Made by a program: the position numbers and the translations under genes. From Candidatus Tumulicola sp. (GTDB lineage: Bacteria; Vulcanimicrobiota; Vulcanimicrobiia; Eremiobacterales; Eremiobacteraceae): 64,000 nt of DNA. The notes below the pieces were generated by a model. The model saw nothing but the letters and a program-made list of their open reading frames with translations. It had not been told where the DNA came from and did no database searches. Of this stretch, positions 46,065-54,896 are shown piece after piece; position 1 is the stretch's first letter; each line of letters opens with the position of its first letter. Location of the stretch: assembly GCA_035601835.1 (NCBI GenBank), contig DATNNM010000018.1, forward strand, positions 133,890 through 197,889. The letters are read 5' to 3'.

Positions 46065-49000
46065 TCACATGCCGGGGGAGGGGGAACCCGCGAGTTCTTC
46101 GTCCGGCTCCGCGATCGCGAGGCGGCGCGCCATTCGTTTGGCATGGATGCGCTCCACCCAGCCGACCAGCACCACATACCAGACCGGAACGAGGAAAAGC
46201 GTGAGCAGCAGCGAGCTGATCAAGCCGCCGATGATCACCGTGCCCATCGACTTGCGGAACTCGGCGCCCTCGGTGATGCCGATCGCGAGCGGCAGCATTC
46301 CCAAGATCATCGCGGCGGTGGTCATGACGATCGGGCGGAAACGGACCACGGCAGATTCCCTCATCGCCTCGACGAGCCCCAGGCCCCTGGTGTGCAGCGT
46401 GTTCGCGTAATCCACGAGCAGGATGCCGTTCTTTGCGACCAGCCCCATCAGCATCACGATTCCCAGCATGGAGAATATGTTGAGCGTCTGTCCGGCGAAG
46501 TAGCGAACGTCCGGCAGGACGCCGTGGATCAGGTTGCTCACCGTGAGGATGCCGAGCGCGCCGATGAGCGCGACCGGTATGCTGAACATGATGACCCACG
46601 GTGTCAGATAATTGCGATACAAGATCACCAGCAGCATATAGATCAGCACGAACGACGTCAGGAGCGCGATGCCGATCTTATTGACTGTATCGCCCAGGAA
46701 TTGAGCCTCGCCCTCGGCCTTGACGCTGACGCCGGGGGGCAAGAAGCCGGGCTGCGCCAGCACCTTCTTCACCTTCTCGTCGATGGGCCCGATCGGAGCG
46801 CCGCCTACGGTGCTCGCGAACACGCGAACGATGCGCTGGCGATCCTGCCGGCGTAGCGTCGGAGGCTCGCTTACCCAACGGAAATGTGCCACGTCCGCGA
46901 GCGGCACTAGGGTGCCATCGCTGGCTCGCACCTGCGCAGTGCGAATTTGCGACTCGTCGTTGCGGACCGCGGGAGAAAACTGCACGAGGGTGTCTACGAG
47001 CCCATCGGGCATGCGCAACTTGGTCGCGATGACGCCTGCGACCGCTGCGCGGGCCGTTGTCGCTGCCGCCTGCGGCGATACCCCGAGCAACGCTGAGCGA
47101 TCGCGATCGATGTTCACTTCAAGACGCGGTCCGACAATAGCGCTCGTCGCTTTCACGCCAATGGTGTTCGGGATCTTCTTTATGTACGCGGCCAGCTTAT
47201 CGGCCGCGGCGAACAGCTCGTCGGCCTGGCCGCTGAGCGTGTAGACCAGGTCTGCACCGCCGCCGTTTTGCGCGCCGCCCGCCTCGATCAGTCCGCCCGG
47301 TACCAGATTACCCATTCCGCGTATGGCCTCGACGACCTGATGCTCGTTGTGGCGCTTCGACGCTTTGAGGTTGACCTGCAGATTGGCGACATAACCGCCG
47401 TTGACGTCGTTGTTGTCCTGGCCGACGTTGACGATGACGTCTTGAACATCATCGCGCTTGAGCAGTTCGCGCTCCAAGCGGTGGGCGCCGGCCGACGTCA
47501 CGTCGATCGGCGTGCCCACCCGATACGTCAGGCTCGCGACCGCCCAACCGTATTCGGTGTTCGGCTGGAACTCGAAGGGCACGATTCCGCTTGCTACGGT
47601 CGCAAGCGAAGCCACCACCAGGCCGACCGAACCGAAGATCACGAGATATGGGTGACGCTGCGCCCATGGCAGCAATTTGTCGTGATAGTTCACGCGCACG
47701 CGATCGAACCAGGCGGTAAAAGCGCGCACGAAACCCCAGCGGCTCGGCTTCGGTTTGCGTAACACGGCCCACTTCGCCGCCAGCAGAGGCGTGAGCGTAA
47801 AGGAGACCAACAGCGAGAACATCGTGGCGGTGACGATGACGAGCCCGTACTCACGCAAGAACTGCCCAACGATGCCGCCCATGAACGCGATGGGCGTGAA
47901 CACGACGACGTCCACGAGCGTGATCGCGATCGCCGCGGTGCCGATCTCCGAGCGGCCGACGATGGCCGCCTCCTCGGCGGGTTTGCCCATCTCTCGATGG
48001 CGCGTGATATTCTCGATGACGACGATCGAGTCGTCGACTAAGATGCCGATCGTCAGTGACAGCCCCATCAGCGAGAGCAGGTCGATGGAGAACCCGAGGA
48101 TCCACATCAGCAGGAAGGTCGCCAACAGCGAAGTCGGGATCGCGACCATCACCACCAACGCGCTGCGCCACAGATGCAGGAAGAATAGCAAGACGAGAGC
48201 CGTCAGCAGGATGCCTTCGCCAAGGTTTTGGAACACGCCCGAGAGAGCCTCGCCGAGGAACGTCGCGTCCGCCACGAGTTCGTTGAATTGCACGTCGGGG
48301 TACTTGGCCTTGAGGATCTTGAACTCGTCGCGCACGCGCGCGGTGGTGCGTGCCGTGTCGGCGTCTGAATCGTGGGCGATATTGAGCACGACCGCCACAT
48401 TGTTGTTCACATCCGAAGCGAGGCGGTGGTCCTGATACGAATCCACCACCTTCGCCACGTCGCCTACTCGCAGCTGGGTCATCGAGGCGCCCGGCACGGA
48501 CAGCGACAGTTGTGCGATTTGCGCGGGATCGGTGATGTCCGCGCGCACGCCCATGGTGGCCTCGCGGTATTGGTCGAGACGGCCGCCGGGCAAGCTGACA
48601 TTGCCTTGCGCGACGGCACTGCTGACGTCGAGCAGCGTTGCTCCGAGTATCTGCAAGCGCGCCGGGTCCGGGTTCACCGTCACCTGTCGAACGTATTGAC
48701 CGCTCTCGGCGACGAAGCCGACGCCTTGCACGCCCTTGAGCGCCGGGACGATCTGGTATTGAACGAGATTCGAAAGTTCGACCGGTGACAGCTTTGAGGA
48801 AGTGATCGTCTCGGTCATGATCGGCTGGGCGTTCGGGTCCTCCCGCGTGACGATCGGCGGAATGAGGTCGGAGGGCAGATTGACCCGTGCCGCGTCGATG
48901 GCTTGCTGCACGTCGATGGCGCCGAAATCGACGTTGGCGCCCAACTTGAGCTGCACTCCGATAATGCCGGAGCCTTCTTGAGCGCGAGCGGTGATTTTCT

Positions 49001-49232
49001 CCACATGGCGGACGCCTTGCAACTCGTCTTCAATGGGCCGGATGACGAGCCGTTCGATCTCCTGCGGGCTCGCGCCGGGATACACCGCGAAGACGTTGAT
49101 GAACGGGAATTGAACATTGGGGTTGATGTTGACGCCCATCGAGAAATAGCCGATGACGCCGAACAGCGCGATCGCCACGAAGAACAACGTGACGATGGTC
49201 GGCTGTTTTATGGCAAAGCGTGTCAACCACAT
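46065..49232 (-). CDS. RND efflux transporter permease (AcrB/HAE1-like)
   Basis: 1055 aa with a 12-TM RND layout and two large periplasmic loops. N-terminus MWLTRFAIKQPTIVTLFFVAIALFG. Confidence 0.9.
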   Translation of the reverse strand: MWLTRFAIKQPTIVTLFFVAIALFGVIGYFSMGVNINPNVQFPFINVFAVYPGASPQEIERLVIRPIEDELQGVRHVEKITARAQEGSGIIGVQLKLGANVDFGAIDVQQAIDAARVNLPSDLIPPIVTREDPNAQPIMTETITSSKLSPVELSNLVQYQIVPALKGVQGVGFVAESGQYVRQVTVNPDPARLQILGATLLDVSSAVAQGNVSLPGGRLDQYREATMGVRADITDPAQIAQLSLSVPGASMTQLRVGDVAKVVDSYQDHRLASDVNNNVAVVLNIAHDSDADTARTTARVRDEFKILKAKYPDVQFNELVADATFLGEALSGVFQNLGEGILLTALVLLFFLHLWRSALVVMVAIPTSLLATFLLMWILGFSIDLLSLMGLSLTIGILVDDSIVVIENITRHREMGKPAEEAAIVGRSEIGTAAIAITLVDVVVFTPIAFMGGIVGQFLREYGLVIVTATMFSLLVSFTLTPLLAAKWAVLRKPKPSRWGFVRAFTAWFDRVRVNYHDKLLPWAQRHPYLVIFGSVGLVVASLATVASGIVPFEFQPNTEYGWAVASLTYRVGTPIDVTSAGAHRLERELLKRDDVQDVIVNVGQDNNDVNGGYVANLQVNLKASKRHNEHQVVEAIRGMGNLVPGGLIEAGGAQNGGGADLVYTLSGQADELFAAADKLAAYIKKIPNTIGVKATSAIVGPRLEVNIDRDRSALLGVSPQAAATTARAAVAGVIATKLRMPDGLVDTLVQFSPAVRNDESQIRTAQVRASDGTLVPLADVAHFRWVSEPPTLRRQDRQRIVRVFASTVGGAPIGPIDEKVKKVLAQPGFLPPGVSVKAEGEAQFLGDTVNKIGIALLTSFVLIYMLLVILYRNYLTPWVIMFSIPVALIGALGILTVSNLIHGVLPDVRYFAGQTLNIFSMLGIVMLMGLVAKNGILLVDYANTLHTRGLGLVEAMRESAVVRFRPIVMTTAAMILGMLPLAIGITEGAEFRKSMGTVIIGGLISSLLLTLFLVPVWYVVLVGWVERIHAKRMARRLAIAEPDEELAGSPSPGM

Positions 49233-49299
49233 GATTAAAGGTGCCTACTGCGCCCGCGGGACGAAAGTTACAATGGGTTCGTTTCGGGGCTTTCGGACG

Positions 49300-50463
49300 C
49301 TAGTCCGGCTTTTTTAGGCCCGAGCCCGTGTTGATCAGCAGCACGCGCTCTTCGGGGTGGATCCAGCCTTGGGCCAGCAAAGATTGGGCGGCTGCGAGCG
49401 TGGCGCCGCCTTCCCGGCACGCGGAGATGCCTTCGGTCGTAGCGATGCGCTGCTGCGCTTTCAGGATGGCCTCATCATCGACCGCCACCGCGGCGCCGCC
49501 GCTTTCGTAGAGGGCATGCAAGATCAAGAAATCACCGAGCGCCTTTGGGACGTTGATGCCGAAGGCGATCGTCTTCGAGTCTTTCCAGAACGTAGAAATT
49601 GCGGCGTGCTTCTGCCACGCTTTCACGATCGGGGCGCAGCCCGTCGCCTGAACCGCCACGAAGCGCGGCATGCGTTCTTCGAGCAGACCCATCTCGCGCA
49701 GTTCGCGCAGCGCCTTATGAATGCCGATCAGGCCCACTCCGCCGCCGGTCGGATAGATGATCACTTCAGGCACGTCCCAATCGAATTGCTCGACGAGCTC
49801 GAAACCCATCGTCTTTTTGCCCTCGATCCGGTAGGGCTCTTTCAATGTCGAGGCGTCGTAGAGGCCGCGTTCGGCGACGAGCTGCGCCACCACGCGGCCG
49901 GCGTCGCTGATGACGCCCTCAACCAGCTGCACGCGCGCGCCGGCCATCTCGCACTCCAGTCTGTGGATGCTCGGCGCGCTTTTCGGCATCACGATGTGGG
50001 CGGCGATGCCGGCTCGGGCTGCGTACGCCGCCCAGGCGCCCCCCGCGTTGCCGTTGGTCGGCATCGCGAACGCCTTGACGCCGAGTTCTCTCGCGCGCGA
50101 CACACCGACGCACGCGCCGCGCGCCTTGAACGACGCCGTCGGCAGCTGCCCTTCATCCTTTAGATACAAGTTGCGCAGGCCTGTGGCGTTGCCAAGCCGC
50201 TCCAGCTTGTGCAGCGGAGTGAACTGCTCGCCGAGCGAGATCGCCTGTTCGGGATCGCGCAGCGGCAGCAGTTCCGTGTAGCGCCACAAACTGCGCTGGC
50301 GGGTCGCCAGAGTCTCTCGGGAAAGCGTCGACGAGGCGGCATGAAGATCGTAACGCGCCAAGAGCGGCCCGCCGCACGTGCATAGCTGCTGGATGCGGTC
50401 CGCGGCGTAGCGCGCGTCGCACTTGGAACAAGCAAGTTCTGCGAGCGCGGAGCGCGGCGCCAT
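49300..50463 (-). CDS. thrC: Threonine synthase-like PLP enzyme with N-terminal zinc ribbon
   Basis: CSKCDARY...CTCGGPL ribbon and PLP-lysine motif PTASFKARGA. Confidence 0.75.
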   Translation of the reverse strand: MAPRSALAELACSKCDARYAADRIQQLCTCGGPLLARYDLHAASSTLSRETLATRQRSLWRYTELLPLRDPEQAISLGEQFTPLHKLERLGNATGLRNLYLKDEGQLPTASFKARGACVGVSRARELGVKAFAMPTNGNAGGAWAAYAARAGIAAHIVMPKSAPSIHRLECEMAGARVQLVEGVISDAGRVVAQLVAERGLYDASTLKEPYRIEGKKTMGFELVEQFDWDVPEVIIYPTGGGVGLIGIHKALRELREMGLLEERMPRFVAVQATGCAPIVKAWQKHAAISTFWKDSKTIAFGINVPKALGDFLILHALYESGGAAVAVDDEAILKAQQRIATTEGISACREGGATLAAAQSLLAQGWIHPEERVLLINTGSGLKKPD

Positions 50464-50473
50464 TCTTATGACC

Positions 50474-50785
50474 TCAACCCAGGACCGTGTACAACCACCA
50501 ACGCGGTTGATTCTTGCCGCCGCGCGCGATCTGGCGCATGCAGTACAAGGTCATGCGCTTCCCATTGGTCGTCTCGACGTCGAACCAGTGCTTATGGATG
50601 TATGTGTCGCCGCGATCGGTGCGCGTCGTCTTCCAGGTCTTATGCACGTTGGCGACCTCGAACTGTTGATCTCGCCATGTGAATAAGCGCGGTAAACCCG
50701 GTTCGCCACGCGACATGGCGGTGAGATCCGCCGATCCGGGCGCCGGCACGATCGGTTCGCTGACGAACTGCGGTTTCGAGGTCAT
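50474..50785 (-). CDS. Small conserved protein of unknown function (DUF6504-like pattern)
   Basis: ATG 50785 overlaps the upstream stop (ATGA). Motifs FTWRDQQFEV..V..W and WWLYTV. Family assignment is from memory only. Confidence 0.5.
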   Translation of the reverse strand: MTSKPQFVSEPIVPAPGSADLTAMSRGEPGLPRLFTWRDQQFEVANVHKTWKTTRTDRGDTYIHKHWFDVETTNGKRMTLYCMRQIARGGKNQPRWWLYTVLG

Positions 50786-51345
50786 CGCAGCAGCGGCGCG
50801 AGAGCGCGCGACAGCTCGTCCGTGTGGCTGATCACCGGTGAACCGTAACCCCGCAGTGGTCCGGGTACTTCTTTCCAGCGCGCTTTGCCATCGTACACGA
50901 AAAAGGCGTCCCAGCACAAAGCATTAGTGCCGAGGACGCGTCGTCCGAACCAATCGCCTATGGACAGGTTAGCGACCCAATAGTTTGTCACGCGTTTGTC
51001 GGTAAGGATGCTCGAGTCCCACCCGCTCTTGCTGTCAGATGCCAAGACCGAAAACCAGATCGCTTGAATGCGCAGATCGGTACGCGGATGCTTTGCGAGG
51101 ACCTCTTGCTGCACCCAACGGGCGCCGGCTTGGCACACCGCTCAAGTCGGCGAAAGCAGGAGCACGACCCGCGGTTTACCTGTATCGCGGTTGAATGCCG
51201 CGGCCAGTTGATCGACGCCACCAAGGTCATGCAAACCGGTGACGGCACTGGAGTGCCTGCTCTGAACGAAATAGATCGCCGAAATGATGACCACGGCAGC
51301 GGCGGTAGCCAACCCGATGAATAGACGAACGCGCGATAGCGACAT
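50782..51345 (-). CDS. Membrane-anchored thioredoxin-fold protein with in-frame UGA: SPT-U-AVC redox motif (UGA at 51142..51144)
   Basis: ORFs 51142..51459 and 50782..51138 share one frame, split by a single TGA. N-terminal TM helix, then PRVVLLLSPT-U-AVC. Start and stop overlap the neighbouring genes. Confidence 0.65.
51111..51125 (-). promoter_or_regulatory. Candidate SECIS hairpin for the thioredoxin-fold selenoprotein
   Basis: GCGCCC-GUU-GGGUGC (6-bp stem, one G-U pair, GUU loop), starting 17 nt after the UGA. Confidence 0.4.
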
Positions 51346-52397
51346 CACGTGGACAACGCGCCAAAGAGGCTGGTTTGCTTCGTCGCGCCCTCCACCAGTG
51401 AAGCGACGCGCACGCCGACCAATCGAACCGGTTTCCCGTCGAAGGCGCGCTTGAGACAAAACACCGCGGCCGCGGTGATGATGCGCGCGTCGTCTGCAGG
51501 CTCGGCGAGCGTGGTCTGCTTGCCGTGAATTGCGAAATCCGCCAGTTTGATCTTCACCCCCACGGTGAGCGCGCGCAGCTTGCGCCCGGCAAGGCGCTCT
51601 GCGAGTTCCGCCGCTTGCTCGCGGACGGTCTGGGCGAGCACGTTGATGTCCGCCACATCGCGCTCGAAGGTCTGCTCGCTTGAAATGGATCGCATCCGAT
51701 CATCTTGATGCACGCGCCGGCTGTCCATGCCCCGCGCGAGATCGCGAACTTCAACGCCCCAACGGCCGAAGAGCTCGAAAGCCTGCGCGTCGCTCATGGA
51801 AGCGAGCTGCTCGATCCGCTCGATGCCCTTGCGCTGCAGTCGCGCCTGCGTCTTCGGGCCGATGCCCCACAGTCTGCCCACCGGTTTGCTTGCGAGGTAT
51901 TCCGCCTCGCGACCCGGCTCGACGCAGACCAAGCCATCCGGTTTGCCGTCGTCGCTGGCGATCTTGGCGACCATCTTTCCCGACGCCACGCCGATCGAGA
52001 TCGTCAACGAGGTCGCCGCGCGCACTTCTTCCTTGATCCGCCGGGCGATTGCTTCGGCCTCTTGTAGCGTGGTGTCGCCGACGTCGAGGAACGCTTCGTC
52101 CAAAGACATGCGCTCGACGACCTTTGCATGGCTGCGAAGGATCGCGACGACCGCCTTGCTCGCCTCGTGATACTTCTCGAAGTCCGGCTGGACCACGATC
52201 AAATCCGGGCACGATTCCCGCGCGCGATAGAGCGGCGTGGCGCTGCGGATACCGTACGGCCGAGCCTCATACGAGGCGGTCAGCACCACGGCACGGCGGC
52301 TCGACCCGGCGACGACCAGCGGCTTGCCACGCAGCGAAGGGTCGTCGCGTTGGGCCACGCTCGCGTAGAACGCGTCGAGATCGGCGTGCAAAATCAC
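51345..52397 (-). CDS. dinB: DNA polymerase IV (Y-family)
   Basis: GTG 52397 gives VILHADLDAFYASV. Catalytic blocks DLDAFYASV and SLDEAFLDV are intact. The ORF-track N-terminal extension was discarded. Confidence 0.85.
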   Translation of the reverse strand: MILHADLDAFYASVAQRDDPSLRGKPLVVAGSSRRAVVLTASYEARPYGIRSATPLYRARESCPDLIVVQPDFEKYHEASKAVVAILRSHAKVVERMSLDEAFLDVGDTTLQEAEAIARRIKEEVRAATSLTISIGVASGKMVAKIASDDGKPDGLVCVEPGREAEYLASKPVGRLWGIGPKTQARLQRKGIERIEQLASMSDAQAFELFGRWGVEVRDLARGMDSRRVHQDDRMRSISSEQTFERDVADINVLAQTVREQAAELAERLAGRKLRALTVGVKIKLADFAIHGKQTTLAEPADDARIITAAAVFCLKRAFDGKPVRLVGVRVASLVEGATKQTSLFGALST

Positions 52398-52487
52398 TGC
52401 AGGCCAATCTTCTTCGCGTCGCCCGCACAGCCCCGCGAGGGGCCGGCCGCGGCCGCCCTGAACAGCAAGCCCGTGCCGGACGCCCGC

Positions 52488-53546
52488 GTGTATCCCTACC
52501 TGCTCGAACCGCAACTCAAACCGCTCATCTGGGGCGGCGACGCTTTGGTCCGGCACTACTACAAGACGGGCGACCCGAACGCCAAGTACGGTGAGTCGTG
52601 GGAGTGCTGGGATCAGAACCGGACGCTCAATGGTCCGCTGACCGGGAAAACGGTGGCTGATTTGCGAGAGCGGCTCGGCGCGGAGCTGATGGGGCCGCTG
52701 GATCCCAGCCGCATTTTTCCGGTGCTCACGAAGATCATCGATGCGCGCGACTCGCTGTCGGTCCAAGTGCATCCGGGCGATGCCCACGCGCGAGCGCACG
52801 AGCACCAGCCAAACGGCAAGACCGAGTGCTGGTACATCCTTTCGGCTGCCGCGGGCGCGCATCTCATCCTGGGCTGGAAGCGCGACACCACCCGCGATGA
52901 GTATTTACAGCGCGTGGCTGACGGCTCGCTCACCGAGCTCCTGCGCCCCGTCCCCGTCAAGCCCGGCGACGTCTTTTACCTGCCTGCCGGCACTTTACAC
53001 GCCATCGGCGCCGGCATCCAACTCTTCGAGACGCAGCAAGCCAGCGACCTCACCTATCGGATCTTCGATTGGAATCGCGTTGACGCCCAAGGCCGGTCGC
53101 GCGAACTGCACGTCCAAAAAGCCGCAGACGTTTTGGATTATCGCCGATCTGAGGCTGGCGCGCTCAACCCGCTGGAATACCGTACGGGCGGACTGAACCG
53201 CGCTGCGCTAGTAGCGGATCCGCGCTTCACCCTTGAGCGCATCGTTGTGACAAAAACTGGGGGCCAGATCGACCTCGACGGCATGCCGCTCATTCTGTGG
53301 GCGCTTGACGGTGGAATCGAGATTTCAGCCGGCGCTGAGTTGGTGCATTTGCCGCCTTACGCGACGGCGCTGATCCCGGCCGCTGCCGGAAGTGTCAAGG
53401 TGCGCTCCGGTGACGCAGATGCTAAGCTGCTCGCCGCGGCCGTTCCCGCGGACGCCCGTGCCTTAGCGCGAAGGTTTGCAGCGGCCGGCGTGGATGGCGC
53501 AAGCGTCGATAGGTTCGCGGCCCAGTTCTCTACGATCCAGCCTTGA
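52488..53546 (+). CDS. manA: Class I mannose-6-phosphate isomerase
   Basis: YPYLLEPQLKPLIWGG, LSVQVHPGD and ECWYIL motifs. GTG 52488 (or 52473) taken as the start. Confidence 0.75.
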   Translation: MYPYLLEPQLKPLIWGGDALVRHYYKTGDPNAKYGESWECWDQNRTLNGPLTGKTVADLRERLGAELMGPLDPSRIFPVLTKIIDARDSLSVQVHPGDAHARAHEHQPNGKTECWYILSAAAGAHLILGWKRDTTRDEYLQRVADGSLTELLRPVPVKPGDVFYLPAGTLHAIGAGIQLFETQQASDLTYRIFDWNRVDAQGRSRELHVQKAADVLDYRRSEAGALNPLEYRTGGLNRAALVADPRFTLERIVVTKTGGQIDLDGMPLILWALDGGIEISAGAELVHLPPYATALIPAAAGSVKVRSGDADAKLLAAAVPADARALARRFAAAGVDGASVDRFAAQFSTIQP

Positions 53547-54171
53547 CAAGCGCGGGGAACTGCTCGCGCAAGTGCTTCAGCTTCGGCATGTCGTTGAAGA
53601 CGATGTACGGGTTGTAGGGGTTGTGCGCAAGGAAGTGCTGGTGGTAGTCCTCGGCGGCATAGAAAGCCTTGAGCGGCACGACCTGCGTCACAATCGGATT
53701 GCTGAACTTCTTCTCGCGCTCGAGCTGCTTGATGTATGACTCGGCCGCGAGTTTTTGCTGCGGGGTCGTGTAGAAAATCGCCGAGCGATACTGCGTTCCC
53801 GTGTCCGGGCCTTGGCGGTTGAGTTCGGTCGGGTCGTGCGCTACCAGGAAATACACCTGCAGCAACTGGTTGAACGAGATCTTTGAGGGGTCGTACGTCA
53901 CCTCGACGGATTCGGCATGGCCGGTCTCGCCGGTGCTAACGATCTCATAGTGCGCGGTGGCGGCATTGCCGCCGGCGTACCCGGAGACCGCGTTCGAAAC
54001 GCCCTTCAGCGACTCAAAGACCGCTTCCACGCCCCAGAAGCACCCGCCGGCGAGCACCACTTTTTCGCTTCCGCTTGGCGTCGTGGTGGCCTGGCCCGCA
54101 GCCGTGCATCCGAGCAGCAGGCCCGCGAGCACGGCAGCTGCTAGGCTAATTCTTCTTCTCATCATGTCCAT
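53530..54171 (-). CDS. msrA: Peptide methionine-S-sulfoxide reductase, exported lipoprotein form
   Basis: GGCFWGVEAVF active-site motif and N-terminal lipobox LLLGCTAAG. Confidence 0.9.
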   Translation of the reverse strand: MDMMRRRISLAAAVLAGLLLGCTAAGQATTTPSGSEKVVLAGGCFWGVEAVFESLKGVSNAVSGYAGGNAATAHYEIVSTGETGHAESVEVTYDPSKISFNQLLQVYFLVAHDPTELNRQGPDTGTQYRSAIFYTTPQQKLAAESYIKQLEREKKFSNPIVTQVVPLKAFYAAEDYHQHFLAHNPYNPYIVFNDMPKLKHLREQFPALVKAGS

Positions 54172-54205
54172 TACTACGTACGCGGCACCGGCTTGGATGC
54201 CCCAA

Positions 54206-54231
54206 TGTAGCGTTCCGAGCGAAGCTCGGAA
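54206..54231 (+). repeat. REP-like hairpin unit
   Basis: TGTAG-CG-TTCCGAGC-GAA-GCTCGGAA, next to the tRNA-Val(CAC) 3' end. Confidence 0.45.
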
Positions 54232-54238
54232 TCGAACC

Positions 54239-54310
<72 letters not shown>

Positions 54311-54311
54311 T

Positions 54312-54337
54312 TGTAACAGCGGACCTTTAGGTTCGCT
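54312..54337 (+). repeat. REP-like hairpin unit (degenerate head TGTAA)
   Basis: TGTAACA-GCGGACC-TTTA-GGTTCGC. Confidence 0.4.
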
Positions 54338-54392
54338 CGGCCTTAAATCTTCCTTCGTTGACGGGCATTTCCTGTGATGCTACACTCTGGAG

Positions 54393-54896
54393 GTGGCCGT
54401 GCAGCCTTCATCTGCGCCGCAGATCGATCCGTTCAAATTCCAAGATTTCGTTCGCCGTATGCGCGACGGTCAAAATCTCGGATTGGGATTTTTGGGCGGG
54501 CTCATCGGCGGCTTGATCGGCGCCATCTTGTGGGCGATCATCACCGCGCTCAGCAACTACGAACTCGGCATCATGGCCATCGGCGTCGCGTTCCTCGTCG
54601 GCTTCGGCGTTCGCACGCTCGGCAAGGGCGTCGATAAGACGTTCGGCTACCTCGGCGCTGTCTTGTCGCTTCTGAGTTGTGCCGCCGGCAGCTTCTTAGC
54701 GGCTGTAGCGATCGCCTCGCGCCAACAACACGTCGACTTCCTGTTCGCCCTGGCGCGACTCACGCCGCATGCGTTCGATATTTTGAAGGACAGCTTCACC
54801 TTCATCGATCTTATCTTCTATGCCGTGGCGCTCTACTTCGGCTACCGTTACTCGTTCCGGCAGATCACGCATGCGGAGCTGGCCAACCTCACCTGA
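54393..54896 (+). CDS. Hypothetical integral membrane protein
   Basis: 167 aa with four Gly-rich hydrophobic segments; no motif recognised. Confidence 0.55.
   Translation: MAVQPSSAPQIDPFKFQDFVRRMRDGQNLGLGFLGGLIGGLIGAILWAIITALSNYELGIMAIGVAFLVGFGVRTLGKGVDKTFGYLGAVLSLLSCAAGSFLAAVAIASRQQHVDFLFALARLTPHAFDILKDSFTFIDLIFYAVALYFGYRYSFRQITHAELANLT

What the first reader, a model, noticed from the sequence alone, without database searches (positions are those of the whole stretch)
50474..52397. dinB, a Sec-oxidoreductase and a small conserved protein form one translationally coupled operon
A catalytically intact Y-family polymerase (DLDAFYASV, SLDEAFLDV) is followed by the membrane-anchored U-x-x-C thioredoxin-fold gene with a 1-nt overlap. 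That gene is followed by a 103-aa protein (FTWRDQQFEV...WWLYTV) with a 4-nt overlap. Small proteins of this type are, as far as I recall, usually found beside Y-family/ImuB-like polymerases. A membrane redox selenoprotein inserted between the two is not an arrangement I know. It could link translesion synthesis to oxidative or envelope stress, or it could simply be a gene insertion that preserved coupling.
Basis: inference. Interest (0 to 1): 0.6.

Follow-up and report, generated by a model that had tools for sequence, protein, structure and literature searches.

The report
DinB–ImuB-C pair split by selenoprotein gene
In an uncultured soil bacterium (Eremiobacterota), a known pairing of an error-prone DNA polymerase gene (dinB) with its small partner gene (ImuB-C, Pfam DUF6504) has an unrelated gene for an exported selenocysteine redox protein wedged between them; the layout is real, but it is confined to one small clade and looks like a gene insertion, not a new stress circuit.

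Summary
The sequence facts are correct. On the minus strand lie an intact Pol IV gene (52397-51345), a 187-codon gene for a membrane-anchored thioredoxin-fold protein with an in-frame UGA in an LLLSPT-U-AV-C motif (51345-50782), and a 103-codon DUF6504 gene (50785-50474). Stop and start codons overlap at both junctions (TGATG, ATGA).

The UGA is a real selenocysteine codon. It is conserved in every relative, Cys stands there in homologues, a hairpin follows it, and the genome has tRNA-Sec, selA and selB.

DUF6504 is the ImuB-C domain. The same Pfam model hits the C-terminus of genuine ImuB proteins, and the literature reports that free-standing ImuB-C most often sits beside dinB. So the outer two genes form a known pair.

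The three-gene layout occurs only in four near relatives. A fifth contig of the same clade has dinB followed directly by DUF6504. About 150 other DUF6504 loci and 29 other Eremiobacterota dinB loci show no such linkage. The middle gene has lower GC3 than its neighbours, and its domain is extracytoplasmic.

No LexA box precedes dinB, although the genome's imuA-imuB-dnaE2 cassette has one.

Verdict: this is an ordinary DinB/ImuB-C pair with a lineage-specific nested selenoprotein gene. A functional link between translesion synthesis and redox chemistry is unlikely.

The parts
51345..52397 (-). dinB, DNA polymerase IV (350 aa), catalytically intact, with a C-terminal QTSLF clamp-type motif
   Evidence: Pfam IMS E 7e-49, IMS_C E 1e-26, IMS_HHH. 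NCBIfam NF002677 scores 333 bits against a cut-off of 256. Orthologues at 52-72% identity occur in 36 of 40 relatives. dN/dS 0.08-0.09.
50782..51345 (-). Gene for a membrane-anchored thioredoxin-fold selenoprotein (187 aa including Sec67; active site U-A-V-C)
   Evidence: Gene callers split it at the UGA into a 66-67-aa piece and a 109-118-aa piece in L009 and L069; in L070 only the upstream piece was called. Both halves are under purifying selection. AF2 model has pLDDT 95. Foldseek top PDB hits are M. tuberculosis DsbF/DsbE, then ResA and CcmG. No Pfam or NCBIfam model matches.
51265..51324 (-). N-terminal hydrophobic anchor (residues 8-27, LFIGLATAAAVVIISAIYFV), preceded by R5 and R7
   Evidence: Read from the sequence. 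The AF2 model has a helix at residues 3-31. Homologues carry signal or lipoprotein-type N-termini such as LAGC or LTSC.
51142..51144 (-). In-frame UGA read as selenocysteine
   Evidence: The TGA is conserved in L009, L069, L070, L011, L012 and in eight paralogue loci of seven relatives. Cys stands there in L022 and L024 and in 65 of 149 representative homologues. The genome holds tRNA-Sec (77 bits), selA (533 bits) and selB (312 bits).
51111..51125 (-). Candidate SECIS hairpin GCGCCC-GUU-GGGUGC, starting 17 nt after the UGA
   Evidence: All six pairs are invariant in six orthologue sequences down to 36-43% protein identity, with synonymous change only in the loop. The paralogue set has a hairpin in the same zone with two compensatory pairs. 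The single-sequence fold is not exceptional (z 0.3).
50474..50785 (-). Stand-alone ImuB-C domain protein (Pfam DUF6504, 103 aa)
   Evidence: PF20114 E 3e-22. The same model hits the C-terminus of ImuB in imuA-imuB-dnaE2 cassettes (E 4e-5 and 1e-3). The AF2 model is all-beta with pLDDT 89, and Foldseek finds no PDB neighbour (best E 0.4), as published for ImuB-C. dN/dS 0.13-0.18 against L009 and L069.
49300..50463 (-). thrC (threonine synthase). It starts 10 nt after the DUF6504 stop and has its own GAGG. It is probably co-transcribed here but is not part of the conserved unit.
   Evidence: NF006050 scores 603 bits. In L009 and L069 a convergent F420-type oxidoreductase gene separates DUF6504 from thrC.
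52398..52487 (.). Divergent intergenic region between dinB and the mannose-6-phosphate isomerase gene (GTG 52488, + strand). It must hold the operon promoter. It has no LexA box.
   Evidence: Alignment with L009 and L069. The best match to GAAC-N4-GTTC in or next to this region (52331-52620 scanned) has 2-3 mismatches in the 8 core bases. No match with 0-1 mismatch to the 14-mer lies anywhere in 50400-52600.

Best explanation
The outer genes are a known functional pair: an active Pol IV (DinB) and a free-standing ImuB-C domain protein (DUF6504). ImuB-C is a small beta-rich, non-catalytic accessory that published comparative genomics predicts to bind or guide mutagenic polymerases.

In one genus-level clade of Eremiobacterota (another agent's note names it Ca. 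Tumulicola), these two genes came to lie together. In most sampled members, a gene for an unrelated extracytoplasmic UxxC selenoprotein of the TlpA/DsbE/ResA kind lies between them, most likely by insertion. That protein is a thiol-disulfide oxidoreductase of an unannotated family.

The three genes are read from one promoter in the 90-bp region upstream of 52397. That region carries no LexA operator. The second and third genes have no Shine-Dalgarno sequence and are started by ribosomes terminating at TGATG and ATGA.

Shown here: gene identities, Sec decoding signals, the overlaps, and the distribution across genomes. Inferred: co-transcription, translational coupling, a DinB/ImuB-C interaction, and the direction of the event (insertion versus loss).
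For: Identity of the third gene:
- DUF6504 is ImuB-C. The window protein matches PF20114 at E 3e-22. The model also matches residues 428-502 of annotated ImuB proteins in Sinorhizobium and Agrobacterium imuA-imuB-dnaE2 cassettes.
- The fold is all-beta with no PDB neighbour, as described for ImuB-C in PMC12926913.
- PMC3765255 states that stand-alone ImuB-C is most frequently combined with dinB.

The middle gene is dispensable to the pair:
- On the JGI 3300047160 contig, an IMS gene at 265-1338 is followed by DUF6504 at 1342-1650. That DUF6504 is 70% identical to the window's over the full alignment (74% over the best local alignment).
- The trio occurs in the window, L009, L069 and L070.
- Middle-gene GC3 is 0.67, against 0.79-0.82 for its neighbours.
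- It evolves faster: 55-66% amino-acid identity where dinB has 88-89%.
- Its nearest full homologues come from unrelated soil contigs and show no DUF6504; on L011 it is followed by a convergent gene.
- Topology differs: an N-terminal anchor plus an exported thioredoxin-fold domain, versus cytoplasmic DinB and ImuB-C.

Sec is real.
Against: - Outside this clade, DUF6504 of Eremiobacterota and other phyla is not next to dinB. This holds for 0 of 29 loci at +/-1.5 kb, 0 of 14 at up to +/-6 kb, 0 of 80 metagenome loci, and for the Planctomycetota-type DeoC-DUF6504-PabB context. In the window's own family it is mostly fused to a GNAT acetyltransferase. The pairing here could therefore be a chance rearrangement.
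- The genome's own ImuB C-terminus is not hit by PF20114. The profile-profile match to it is weak (E 1e-3, probability 20%).
- DinB ends 7 residues after its clamp motif. The RecA-NT motif that the 2026 survey associates with PolY/ImuB-C modules could not be shown.
- I could not read the DNA of the contig that lacks the middle gene; only its gene table was available.
- No transcript data were available.
Confidence: 0.55

Rival explanations
1. Pure juxtaposition. None of the three genes is functionally related to the others. One lineage-specific rearrangement brought msrA-PMI-dinB(-Sec gene) next to a DUF6504 gene that stayed in its ancestral place near the F420-type oxidoreductase and AcrB genes. 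Compact high-GC genomes readily evolve overlapping stops and starts.
For: - The dinB neighbourhood differs in all 29 other Eremiobacterota loci examined.
- DUF6504 keeps its ancestral neighbours. F420_oxidored and AcrB flank the DUF6504-GNAT fusion in L200, and F420_oxidored flanks it in L037. The same genes flank DUF6504 in L009 and L069.
- No LexA box is shared.
- DUF6504 in this phylum mostly travels with GNAT, not with polymerases.
Against: - Landing within one gene of dinB by chance is improbable: roughly 0.2% for a genome of about 2500 genes, by my own estimate.
- It reproduces the most frequent published context of stand-alone ImuB-C (PMC3765255).
- The dinB-DUF6504 adjacency persists with and without the middle gene.
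Confidence: 0.3
2. A true three-part module. The membrane selenoprotein senses or repairs oxidative or envelope damage and is deliberately co-expressed with DinB and ImuB-C. Alternatively, Sec decoding of the middle gene gates translation of ImuB-C.
For: - Tight coupling geometry is conserved in four assemblies, although what follows the trio differs.
- DUF6504 has no Shine-Dalgarno sequence, so its translation should depend on ribosomes that pass the UGA.
- msrA lies two genes upstream.
Against: - The middle gene is absent in a clade member.
- The products sit in different compartments.
- No other member of the roughly 900-cluster thioredoxin-like family that I examined sits by dinB or DUF6504. 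The window's middle protein gave no hit in any of the 124 DUF6504 or 29 dinB loci searched.
- The middle gene's GC3 is deviant.
Confidence: 0.08
3. The middle reading frame is a decaying pseudogene, or two small genes, and the UGA is a plain stop.
For: All public gene calls cut it at the UGA. The single-sequence fold downstream of the UGA is unexceptional.
Against: - The UGA sits at the same codon in 14 sequences, with conserved flanks on both sides.
- Cys stands there in homologues.
- Hairpins follow the UGA, with compensatory changes in the paralogue set.
- The full Sec machinery is present.
- dN/dS is below 0.35 on both sides of the UGA in the window-versus-L009/L069 comparisons.
Confidence: 0.03

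Closest known systems
Stand-alone ImuB-C genes next to dinB (Aravind, Anand & Iyer 2013, PMC3765255; 'PolYs associated with ImuB-C', Timinskas & Venclovas group, NAR 2026, PMC12926913)
   Same: An active Y-family polymerase gene and a roughly 100-aa ImuB-C/DUF6504 gene lie on the same strand, close together. The small protein is beta-rich with no PDB neighbour and has a conserved C-terminal Trp and basic residues.
   Different: - Published operons often also carry lexA, SRAP, Ku/ligase or DnaE2; none is present here.
- No LexA box is present.
- A selenoprotein gene is nested between the two partners.
- The genome also has a complete LexA-boxed imuA-imuB-dnaE2 cassette. The 2026 survey reports stand-alone ImuB-C modules with DnaE2 in genomes lacking imuA and imuB.
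Extracytoplasmic TlpA/ResA/CcmG/DsbE-type thioredoxin-fold oxidoreductases, and their known UxxC selenoprotein forms (e.g. 'thiol-disulfide isomerase-like', 'redoxin family' and 'thiol:disulfide interchange' selenoproteins listed in PMC13188914)
   Same: - An N-terminal anchor or lipoprotein signal.
- A beta-strand followed by [U/C]xxC at the start of a helix.
- Foldseek hits to M. tuberculosis DsbF/DsbE, ResA and CcmG.
- Sec and Cys forms coexist in the family.
- Some members are fused to a long N-terminal multi-pass hydrophobic region with a conserved FNPCG motif that I read as CcdA/DsbD-like (no Pfam hit), or carry HMA domains.
   Different: - No Pfam-A or NCBIfam model matches this family at E <= 0.01.
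- PDB matches are weak (E about 1e-4, TM 0.4-0.6).
- The family has its own signature: PRhhLLhSPT[U/C]xxC...GAxW...LRVYAVW...WD.Y.LY.
- I could not test the CDD model cd02966.
Canonical ImuA-ImuB-DnaE2 mutasome
   Same: It shares the ImuB-C domain, and the genome carries a copy of the cassette at contig C8:57605-63094 behind TCGAACATATGTTCGA.
   Different: Here the polymerase is catalytically active DinB. ImuB-C is a separate protein. No RecA-like ImuA or DnaE2 lies in cis. No SOS operator is present.

Membership tests
Y-family DNA polymerase IV (DinB) | IMS catalytic core plus little-finger domain, with catalytic Asp/Asp/Glu | tested here: met
   PF00817, PF11798 and PF11799 match. DLDAF and SLDEAF are present. 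NF002677 scores above its cut-off.
Y-family DNA polymerase IV (DinB) | Beta-clamp binding motif QxxLF near the C-terminus | tested here: met
   KQTSLFGALST* read directly from the translation.
Bacterial selenoprotein | In-frame UGA conserved among homologues, with coding conservation on both sides | tested here: met
   Fourteen sequences carry TGA at the aligned codon. dN/dS is 0.29-0.31 upstream and 0.21 downstream of it against L009 and L069.
Bacterial selenoprotein | Cys-containing homologues aligned at the Sec position | tested here: met
   65 of 149 representatives have Cys in SPT-C-xx-C, and roughly 70 more are fragments that start just after it. L022 and L024 have Cys.
Bacterial selenoprotein | SECIS hairpin shortly downstream of the UGA | tested here: inconclusive
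   The orthologue hairpin is invariant, so it offers no covariation. The paralogue hairpin has 2 of 6 pairs with compensatory changes. The single-sequence MFE is not exceptional. SelB binding cannot be tested with these tools.
Bacterial selenoprotein | Sec machinery in the genome (tRNA-Sec, SelA, SelB) | tested here: met
   RF01852 scores 77 bits, TIGR00474 scores 533 bits and TIGR00475 scores 312 bits, all on contig C11. selD was not searched.
Thioredoxin-fold TlpA/DsbE/ResA-like oxidoreductase | Thioredoxin fold with [C/U]xxC at the N-terminus of helix 1 | tested here: met
   AF2 model with pLDDT 95. Strand 59-64 is followed by U67-x-x-C70 and helix 69-83. Foldseek finds DsbF, DsbE, ResA and CcmG.
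Thioredoxin-fold TlpA/DsbE/ResA-like oxidoreductase | Match to curated sequence models (Pfam Redoxin, AhpC-TSA, Thioredoxin_x; NCBIfam) | tested here: not met
   No family matches at E <= 0.01 for the window protein or, at E <= 0.1, for eight of the ten Cys homologues scanned; the other two hit only HMA and an unrelated C-terminal Thioredoxin_3 stretch.
ImuB-C (Pfam PF20114, DUF6504) | Significant match to the family model, and that model recognising genuine ImuB C-termini | tested here: met
   E 3e-22 for the window protein. E 4e-5 and 1e-3 on ImuB residues 428-502 from two alphaproteobacterial cassettes. The model does not hit Eremiobacterota ImuB C-termini.
ImuB-C (Pfam PF20114, DUF6504) | Beta-rich small domain, conserved C-terminal Trp and basic residues, no known fold neighbour | tested here: met
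   W96, R84 and H66 are invariant and R95 nearly invariant. The model is all-beta. The best PDB E-value is 0.4.
PolY-[ImuB-C]-RecA association module (NAR 2026) | The PolY partner carries a RecA-NT motif | not tested
   I had no motif model. DinB ends 7 residues after QTSLF, which leaves little room for a C-terminal motif.
SOS (LexA) regulon | LexA operator in the promoter | tested here: not met
   The genome's box is TCGAAC-N4-GTTCGA, seen upstream of lexA and imuA. The best match near the dinB promoter has 2-3 core mismatches, and window-wide matches are at chance level.
Single operon with translational coupling | One transcript, with downstream starts dependent on upstream termination | not testable with these tools

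The most novel reading that the evidence does not exclude
DUF6504/ImuB-C has no ribosome-binding site of its own and starts on the ATGA stop of a gene that holds a Sec-UGA 360 nt upstream. Its synthesis may therefore be throttled by the efficiency of selenocysteine insertion. That would make the dose of a translesion-polymerase accessory factor depend on selenium supply or redox state, a form of recoding-dependent translational polarity inside a mutagenesis operon.
Probability: 0.08. Interest if true: 0.65.

Novelty: new member of a known kind. Interest (0 to 1): 0.33.

Why it matters
It extends the DinB/ImuB-C association, so far described mainly in Actinobacteria, Firmicutes, Deltaproteobacteria and Deinococcus-type genomes, to a candidate phylum. 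It also shows that the pair can arise late and locally.

It marks DUF6504 annotations as ImuB-C.

It shows in passing that a large thioredoxin-like family (about 900 clusters at 50% identity) with no Pfam or NCBIfam model is roughly half selenoprotein and is systematically cut in two by gene callers. That matters for selenoproteome catalogues more than for DNA repair.

The proposed link between translesion synthesis and redox chemistry would have been surprising, but it is not supported.

Tried and rejected
- LexA control. I derived the genome's own box from the lexA and imuA upstream regions. None lies in or before the operon.
- Rfam scan of 49000-54500 at E <= 1. It found only a tRNA at 54239-54310 and a sub-threshold radC hit.
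- Promoter and terminator scan. Results were at chance level, and the one terminator-like site inside dinB is not conserved in L009.
- Direct homology between DUF6504 and this genome's ImuB C-terminus. hhalign against the single sequence gave nothing. Profile against profile was weak (E 1e-3, 24 columns). Pfam on 17 Eremiobacterota ImuB C-termini gave no hit. The link was established instead through alphaproteobacterial ImuB.
- PDB fold search for DUF6504 gave no neighbour.
- tblastn of DUF6504 against plasmids gave no match.
- The genome-contig scan with a 12-sequence alignment failed. The narrower alignment used one strict peptide pattern and returned only 14 Eremiobacterota loci, so it is not a broad survey.
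- My first PMI query was out of frame. I redid it in frame and got the same negative result.
- Full-text search for 'DUF6504' found no paper.
- Gene neighbourhoods of the thioredoxin-like paralogues were looked at only crudely and not resolved.
Full report
**What is there.** Three genes on the minus strand of 50474-52397 are packed without spacers.

- The first runs from GTG 52397 to TGA 51347-51345 and encodes a 350-aa Pol IV. It has Pfam IMS, IMS_HHH and IMS_C domains, scores 333 bits on NCBIfam NF002677 (cut-off 256), carries the catalytic DLDAF and SLDEAF motifs, and ends with a QTSLF clamp-type motif.
- The second starts at ATG 51345, whose A is the last base of the dinB stop. An in-frame GTG at 51348 is the alternative start. 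It runs to TGA 50784-50782 if the TGA at 51144-51142 is read through. That gives 187 residues: a hydrophobic N-terminal helix, then ...PRVVLLLSPT-U-AV-CQAGARWVQQ...
- The third starts at ATG 50785, inside the ATGA that ends the second gene. It encodes 103 residues that match Pfam DUF6504 at E 3e-22.
- thrC follows after 10 nt with its own GAGG. An AcrB-type pump gene comes next.
- Upstream, a mannose-6-phosphate isomerase gene (GTG 52488, + strand) diverges from dinB, leaving a 90-bp control region.

**The middle gene is a selenoprotein gene.**

- The genome (2.57 Mb, 18 contigs) holds a tRNA-Sec (77 bits) and adjacent selA and selB genes.
- The TGA lies at the same codon, with LLLSPT before it and xxC after it, in three close assemblies (L009, L069, L070), in two soil-metagenome contigs with only 36-43% identity (L011, L012), and at eight paralogue loci in seven other Eremiobacterota genomes. 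Two further paralogues have TGC or TGT there.
- A search of 1.8 billion representative proteins found 909 relatives. Of the best 149, 65 are full-length with SPT-C-xx-C. Roughly 70 are 95-150-aa fragments that begin just after the motif, which is the signature of gene callers stopping at a Sec codon.
- In the window-versus-L009/L069 comparisons, both halves are under purifying selection: dN/dS is 0.29-0.31 before the UGA and 0.21 after it.
- Seventeen nucleotides after the UGA lies the hairpin GCGCCC-GUU-GGGUGC. Its six pairs are invariant in all six orthologue sequences, while the loop takes synonymous changes. The paralogues have a hairpin in the same zone, with two pairs kept through double changes. 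On its own the window hairpin is not thermodynamically unusual. I therefore call the SECIS probable, not proven.

**What the middle protein is.** An AlphaFold2 model built on 39 homologues has pLDDT 95. Its nearest solved structures are the secreted M. tuberculosis DsbF and DsbE, followed by ResA, CcmG, SdbA, Etrx2 and GPx-type proteins. It is a thioredoxin fold of the TlpA/DsbE kind.

Homologues begin with signal or lipoprotein-type peptides. Some carry a long N-terminal multi-pass hydrophobic region with an FNPCG motif that I read as CcdA/DsbD-like (no Pfam model matched it), and others carry HMA domains. All this points to an extracytoplasmic thiol-disulfide oxidoreductase. No Pfam-A or NCBIfam model matches the thioredoxin-like domain itself. 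The 2026 review of prokaryotic selenoproteins lists several UxxC thioredoxin-like families, but each is defined by such a model (PMC13188914).

**What DUF6504 is.** Earlier notes of this scan equate PF20114 with the ImuB-C domain. I tested that claim.

- PF20114 matches residues 428-502 of the annotated ImuB proteins in the imuA-imuB-dnaE2 cassettes of a Sinorhizobium and an Agrobacterium plasmid (E 1e-3 and 4e-5).
- The window protein's model is all-beta (pLDDT 89) and has no PDB neighbour (best E 0.4). That agrees with the description of ImuB-C as a beta-barrel of novel fold (PMC12926913).
- Its invariant C-terminal Trp and basic residues fit the 2013 definition (PMC3765255).
- The model does not reach this phylum's own ImuB C-termini. 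The profile-profile match to them is weak. The relationship is therefore distant.

PMC3765255 states that free-standing ImuB-C is most frequently combined with dinB. PMC12926913 lists 'PolYs associated with ImuB-C' among predicted mutasome types.

**How conserved is the arrangement?** The same order, msrA-PMI-dinB-Sec gene-DUF6504, occurs in GCA_936414105.1 (L009), in a 2.6-Mb JGI contig (L069) and, as far as the contig reaches (dinB-Sec gene-DUF6504-thrC), on a 4-kb JGI contig (L070). Overlapping codons are present at both junctions in all three. In L009 and L069 a convergent F420-type oxidoreductase gene follows DUF6504, so thrC is not part of the unit.

Beyond these four assemblies the linkage disappears.

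- In 29 other Eremiobacterota genomes, the dinB orthologue (57-72% identity in those loci) has none of these neighbours within 1.5 kb, and its downstream genes vary.
- DUF6504 has no dinB within 1.5 kb in 29 loci, within up to 6 kb in 14 further loci, or within up to 5 kb (as far as each contig reaches) in 80 metagenome loci.
- In the window's own family DUF6504 is usually the N-terminal half of a fusion with a GNAT acetyltransferase, next to the same F420-type oxidoreductase and, in L200, with AcrB downstream.
- In Planctomycetota-type contigs it sits between deoC and pabB.
- The key case is the 2071-bp contig that carries P0159. Its DUF6504 is 70% identical to the window's over the full alignment (74% over the best local alignment) and shares the clade-specific ...RGxKNQPRWWLYT ending. 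Its IMS gene ends at 1338 and DUF6504 starts at 1342, so there is no room for a middle gene.

**Regulation.** The genome's LexA box is the Gram-positive type, TCGAAC-N4-GTTCGA. It is present before lexA and before an imuA-imuB-dnaE2 cassette on contig C8. Nothing comparable lies before or inside the dinB operon. The best core match has 2-3 mismatches, and window-wide counts are at chance level. Rfam finds nothing in the operon. The second and third genes have no Shine-Dalgarno-like sequence, whereas thrC does. This fits termination-reinitiation coupling.

**Reading.**

- Most likely (about 0.55): DinB and a stand-alone ImuB-C form the functional pair already predicted in the literature. The pair was assembled late, in one genus-level clade. 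An unrelated exported selenoprotein gene was inserted between them, or lost from one member. Supporting points are its low GC3 (0.67 against 0.79-0.82 for its neighbours), its faster divergence, its foreign-looking nearest relatives and its different cellular compartment.
- Main rival (about 0.3): even the dinB/DUF6504 adjacency is an accident of one rearrangement, since this phylum's DUF6504 otherwise travels with a GNAT domain.
- A real three-way module is unlikely (about 0.08).
- One consequence of the geometry is worth a test. ImuB-C translation should depend on ribosomes that get past the Sec codon.

**Verdict.** The operon is a new, lineage-specific member of the known DinB/ImuB-C kind, and interest is modest. 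The unannotated Sec/Cys thioredoxin-like family is the more useful by-product.

Noticed in passing
L034:1474-2301, L037:997-2283 (-), L200:4992-5852: In most genera of the window's family, DUF6504/ImuB-C is fused N-terminally to a GNAT acetyltransferase (Acetyltransf_3, E 1e-36 in L200). In other contigs a GNAT gene lies next to it or two genes upstream (L031, L106-L108). The text of the 2013 ImuB-C paper that I read does not list this architecture among ImuB-C contexts.
   Followed up: partly
G000 contig C8:57605-63094 (L105): A complete imuA (RecA-like, 266 aa open frame) - imuB (531 aa open frame) - dnaE2 (1110 aa open frame) cassette sits behind a perfect TCGAACATATGTTCGA LexA box. The genome therefore has both a canonical mutasome and a free ImuB-C.
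   Followed up: partly
P0016, P0022 (representative proteins of the thioredoxin-like family): Two full-length database proteins read SPT-W-PVC at the Sec position. Probably TGA was translated as Trp by a gene caller using a TGA=W code, which would make them hidden Sec forms.
   Followed up: no
P0020, P0023, P0028, P0036: In some members of the thioredoxin-like family the domain is preceded by a roughly 340-aa N-terminal multi-pass hydrophobic region (motif FNPCG) that I read as CcdA/DsbD-like, although no Pfam model matched it. Other members hold two copies of the domain plus an HMA metal-binding domain. This hints at electron supply from the cytoplasm and a possible metal link.
   Followed up: no
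window 54239-54310 (-): A tRNA gene (Rfam RF00005, 71 bits) lies just upstream of msrA.
   Followed up: no
L009:5627-6271 (-), L069:5298-5942 (-): A 214-aa F420-type NADP oxidoreductase gene, convergent with DUF6504 and overlapping its 3' end, is present in two relatives. It is absent from the window and from L070, where thrC follows DUF6504 directly. This is a small deletion or insertion polymorphism within the clade.
   Followed up: partly
L069:5001-5309: The DUF6504 of L069 is only 72-76% identical to those of the window and L009, while its dinB is 95% identical to that of L009. The evolutionary rates are uneven, and I have no explanation.
   Followed up: no
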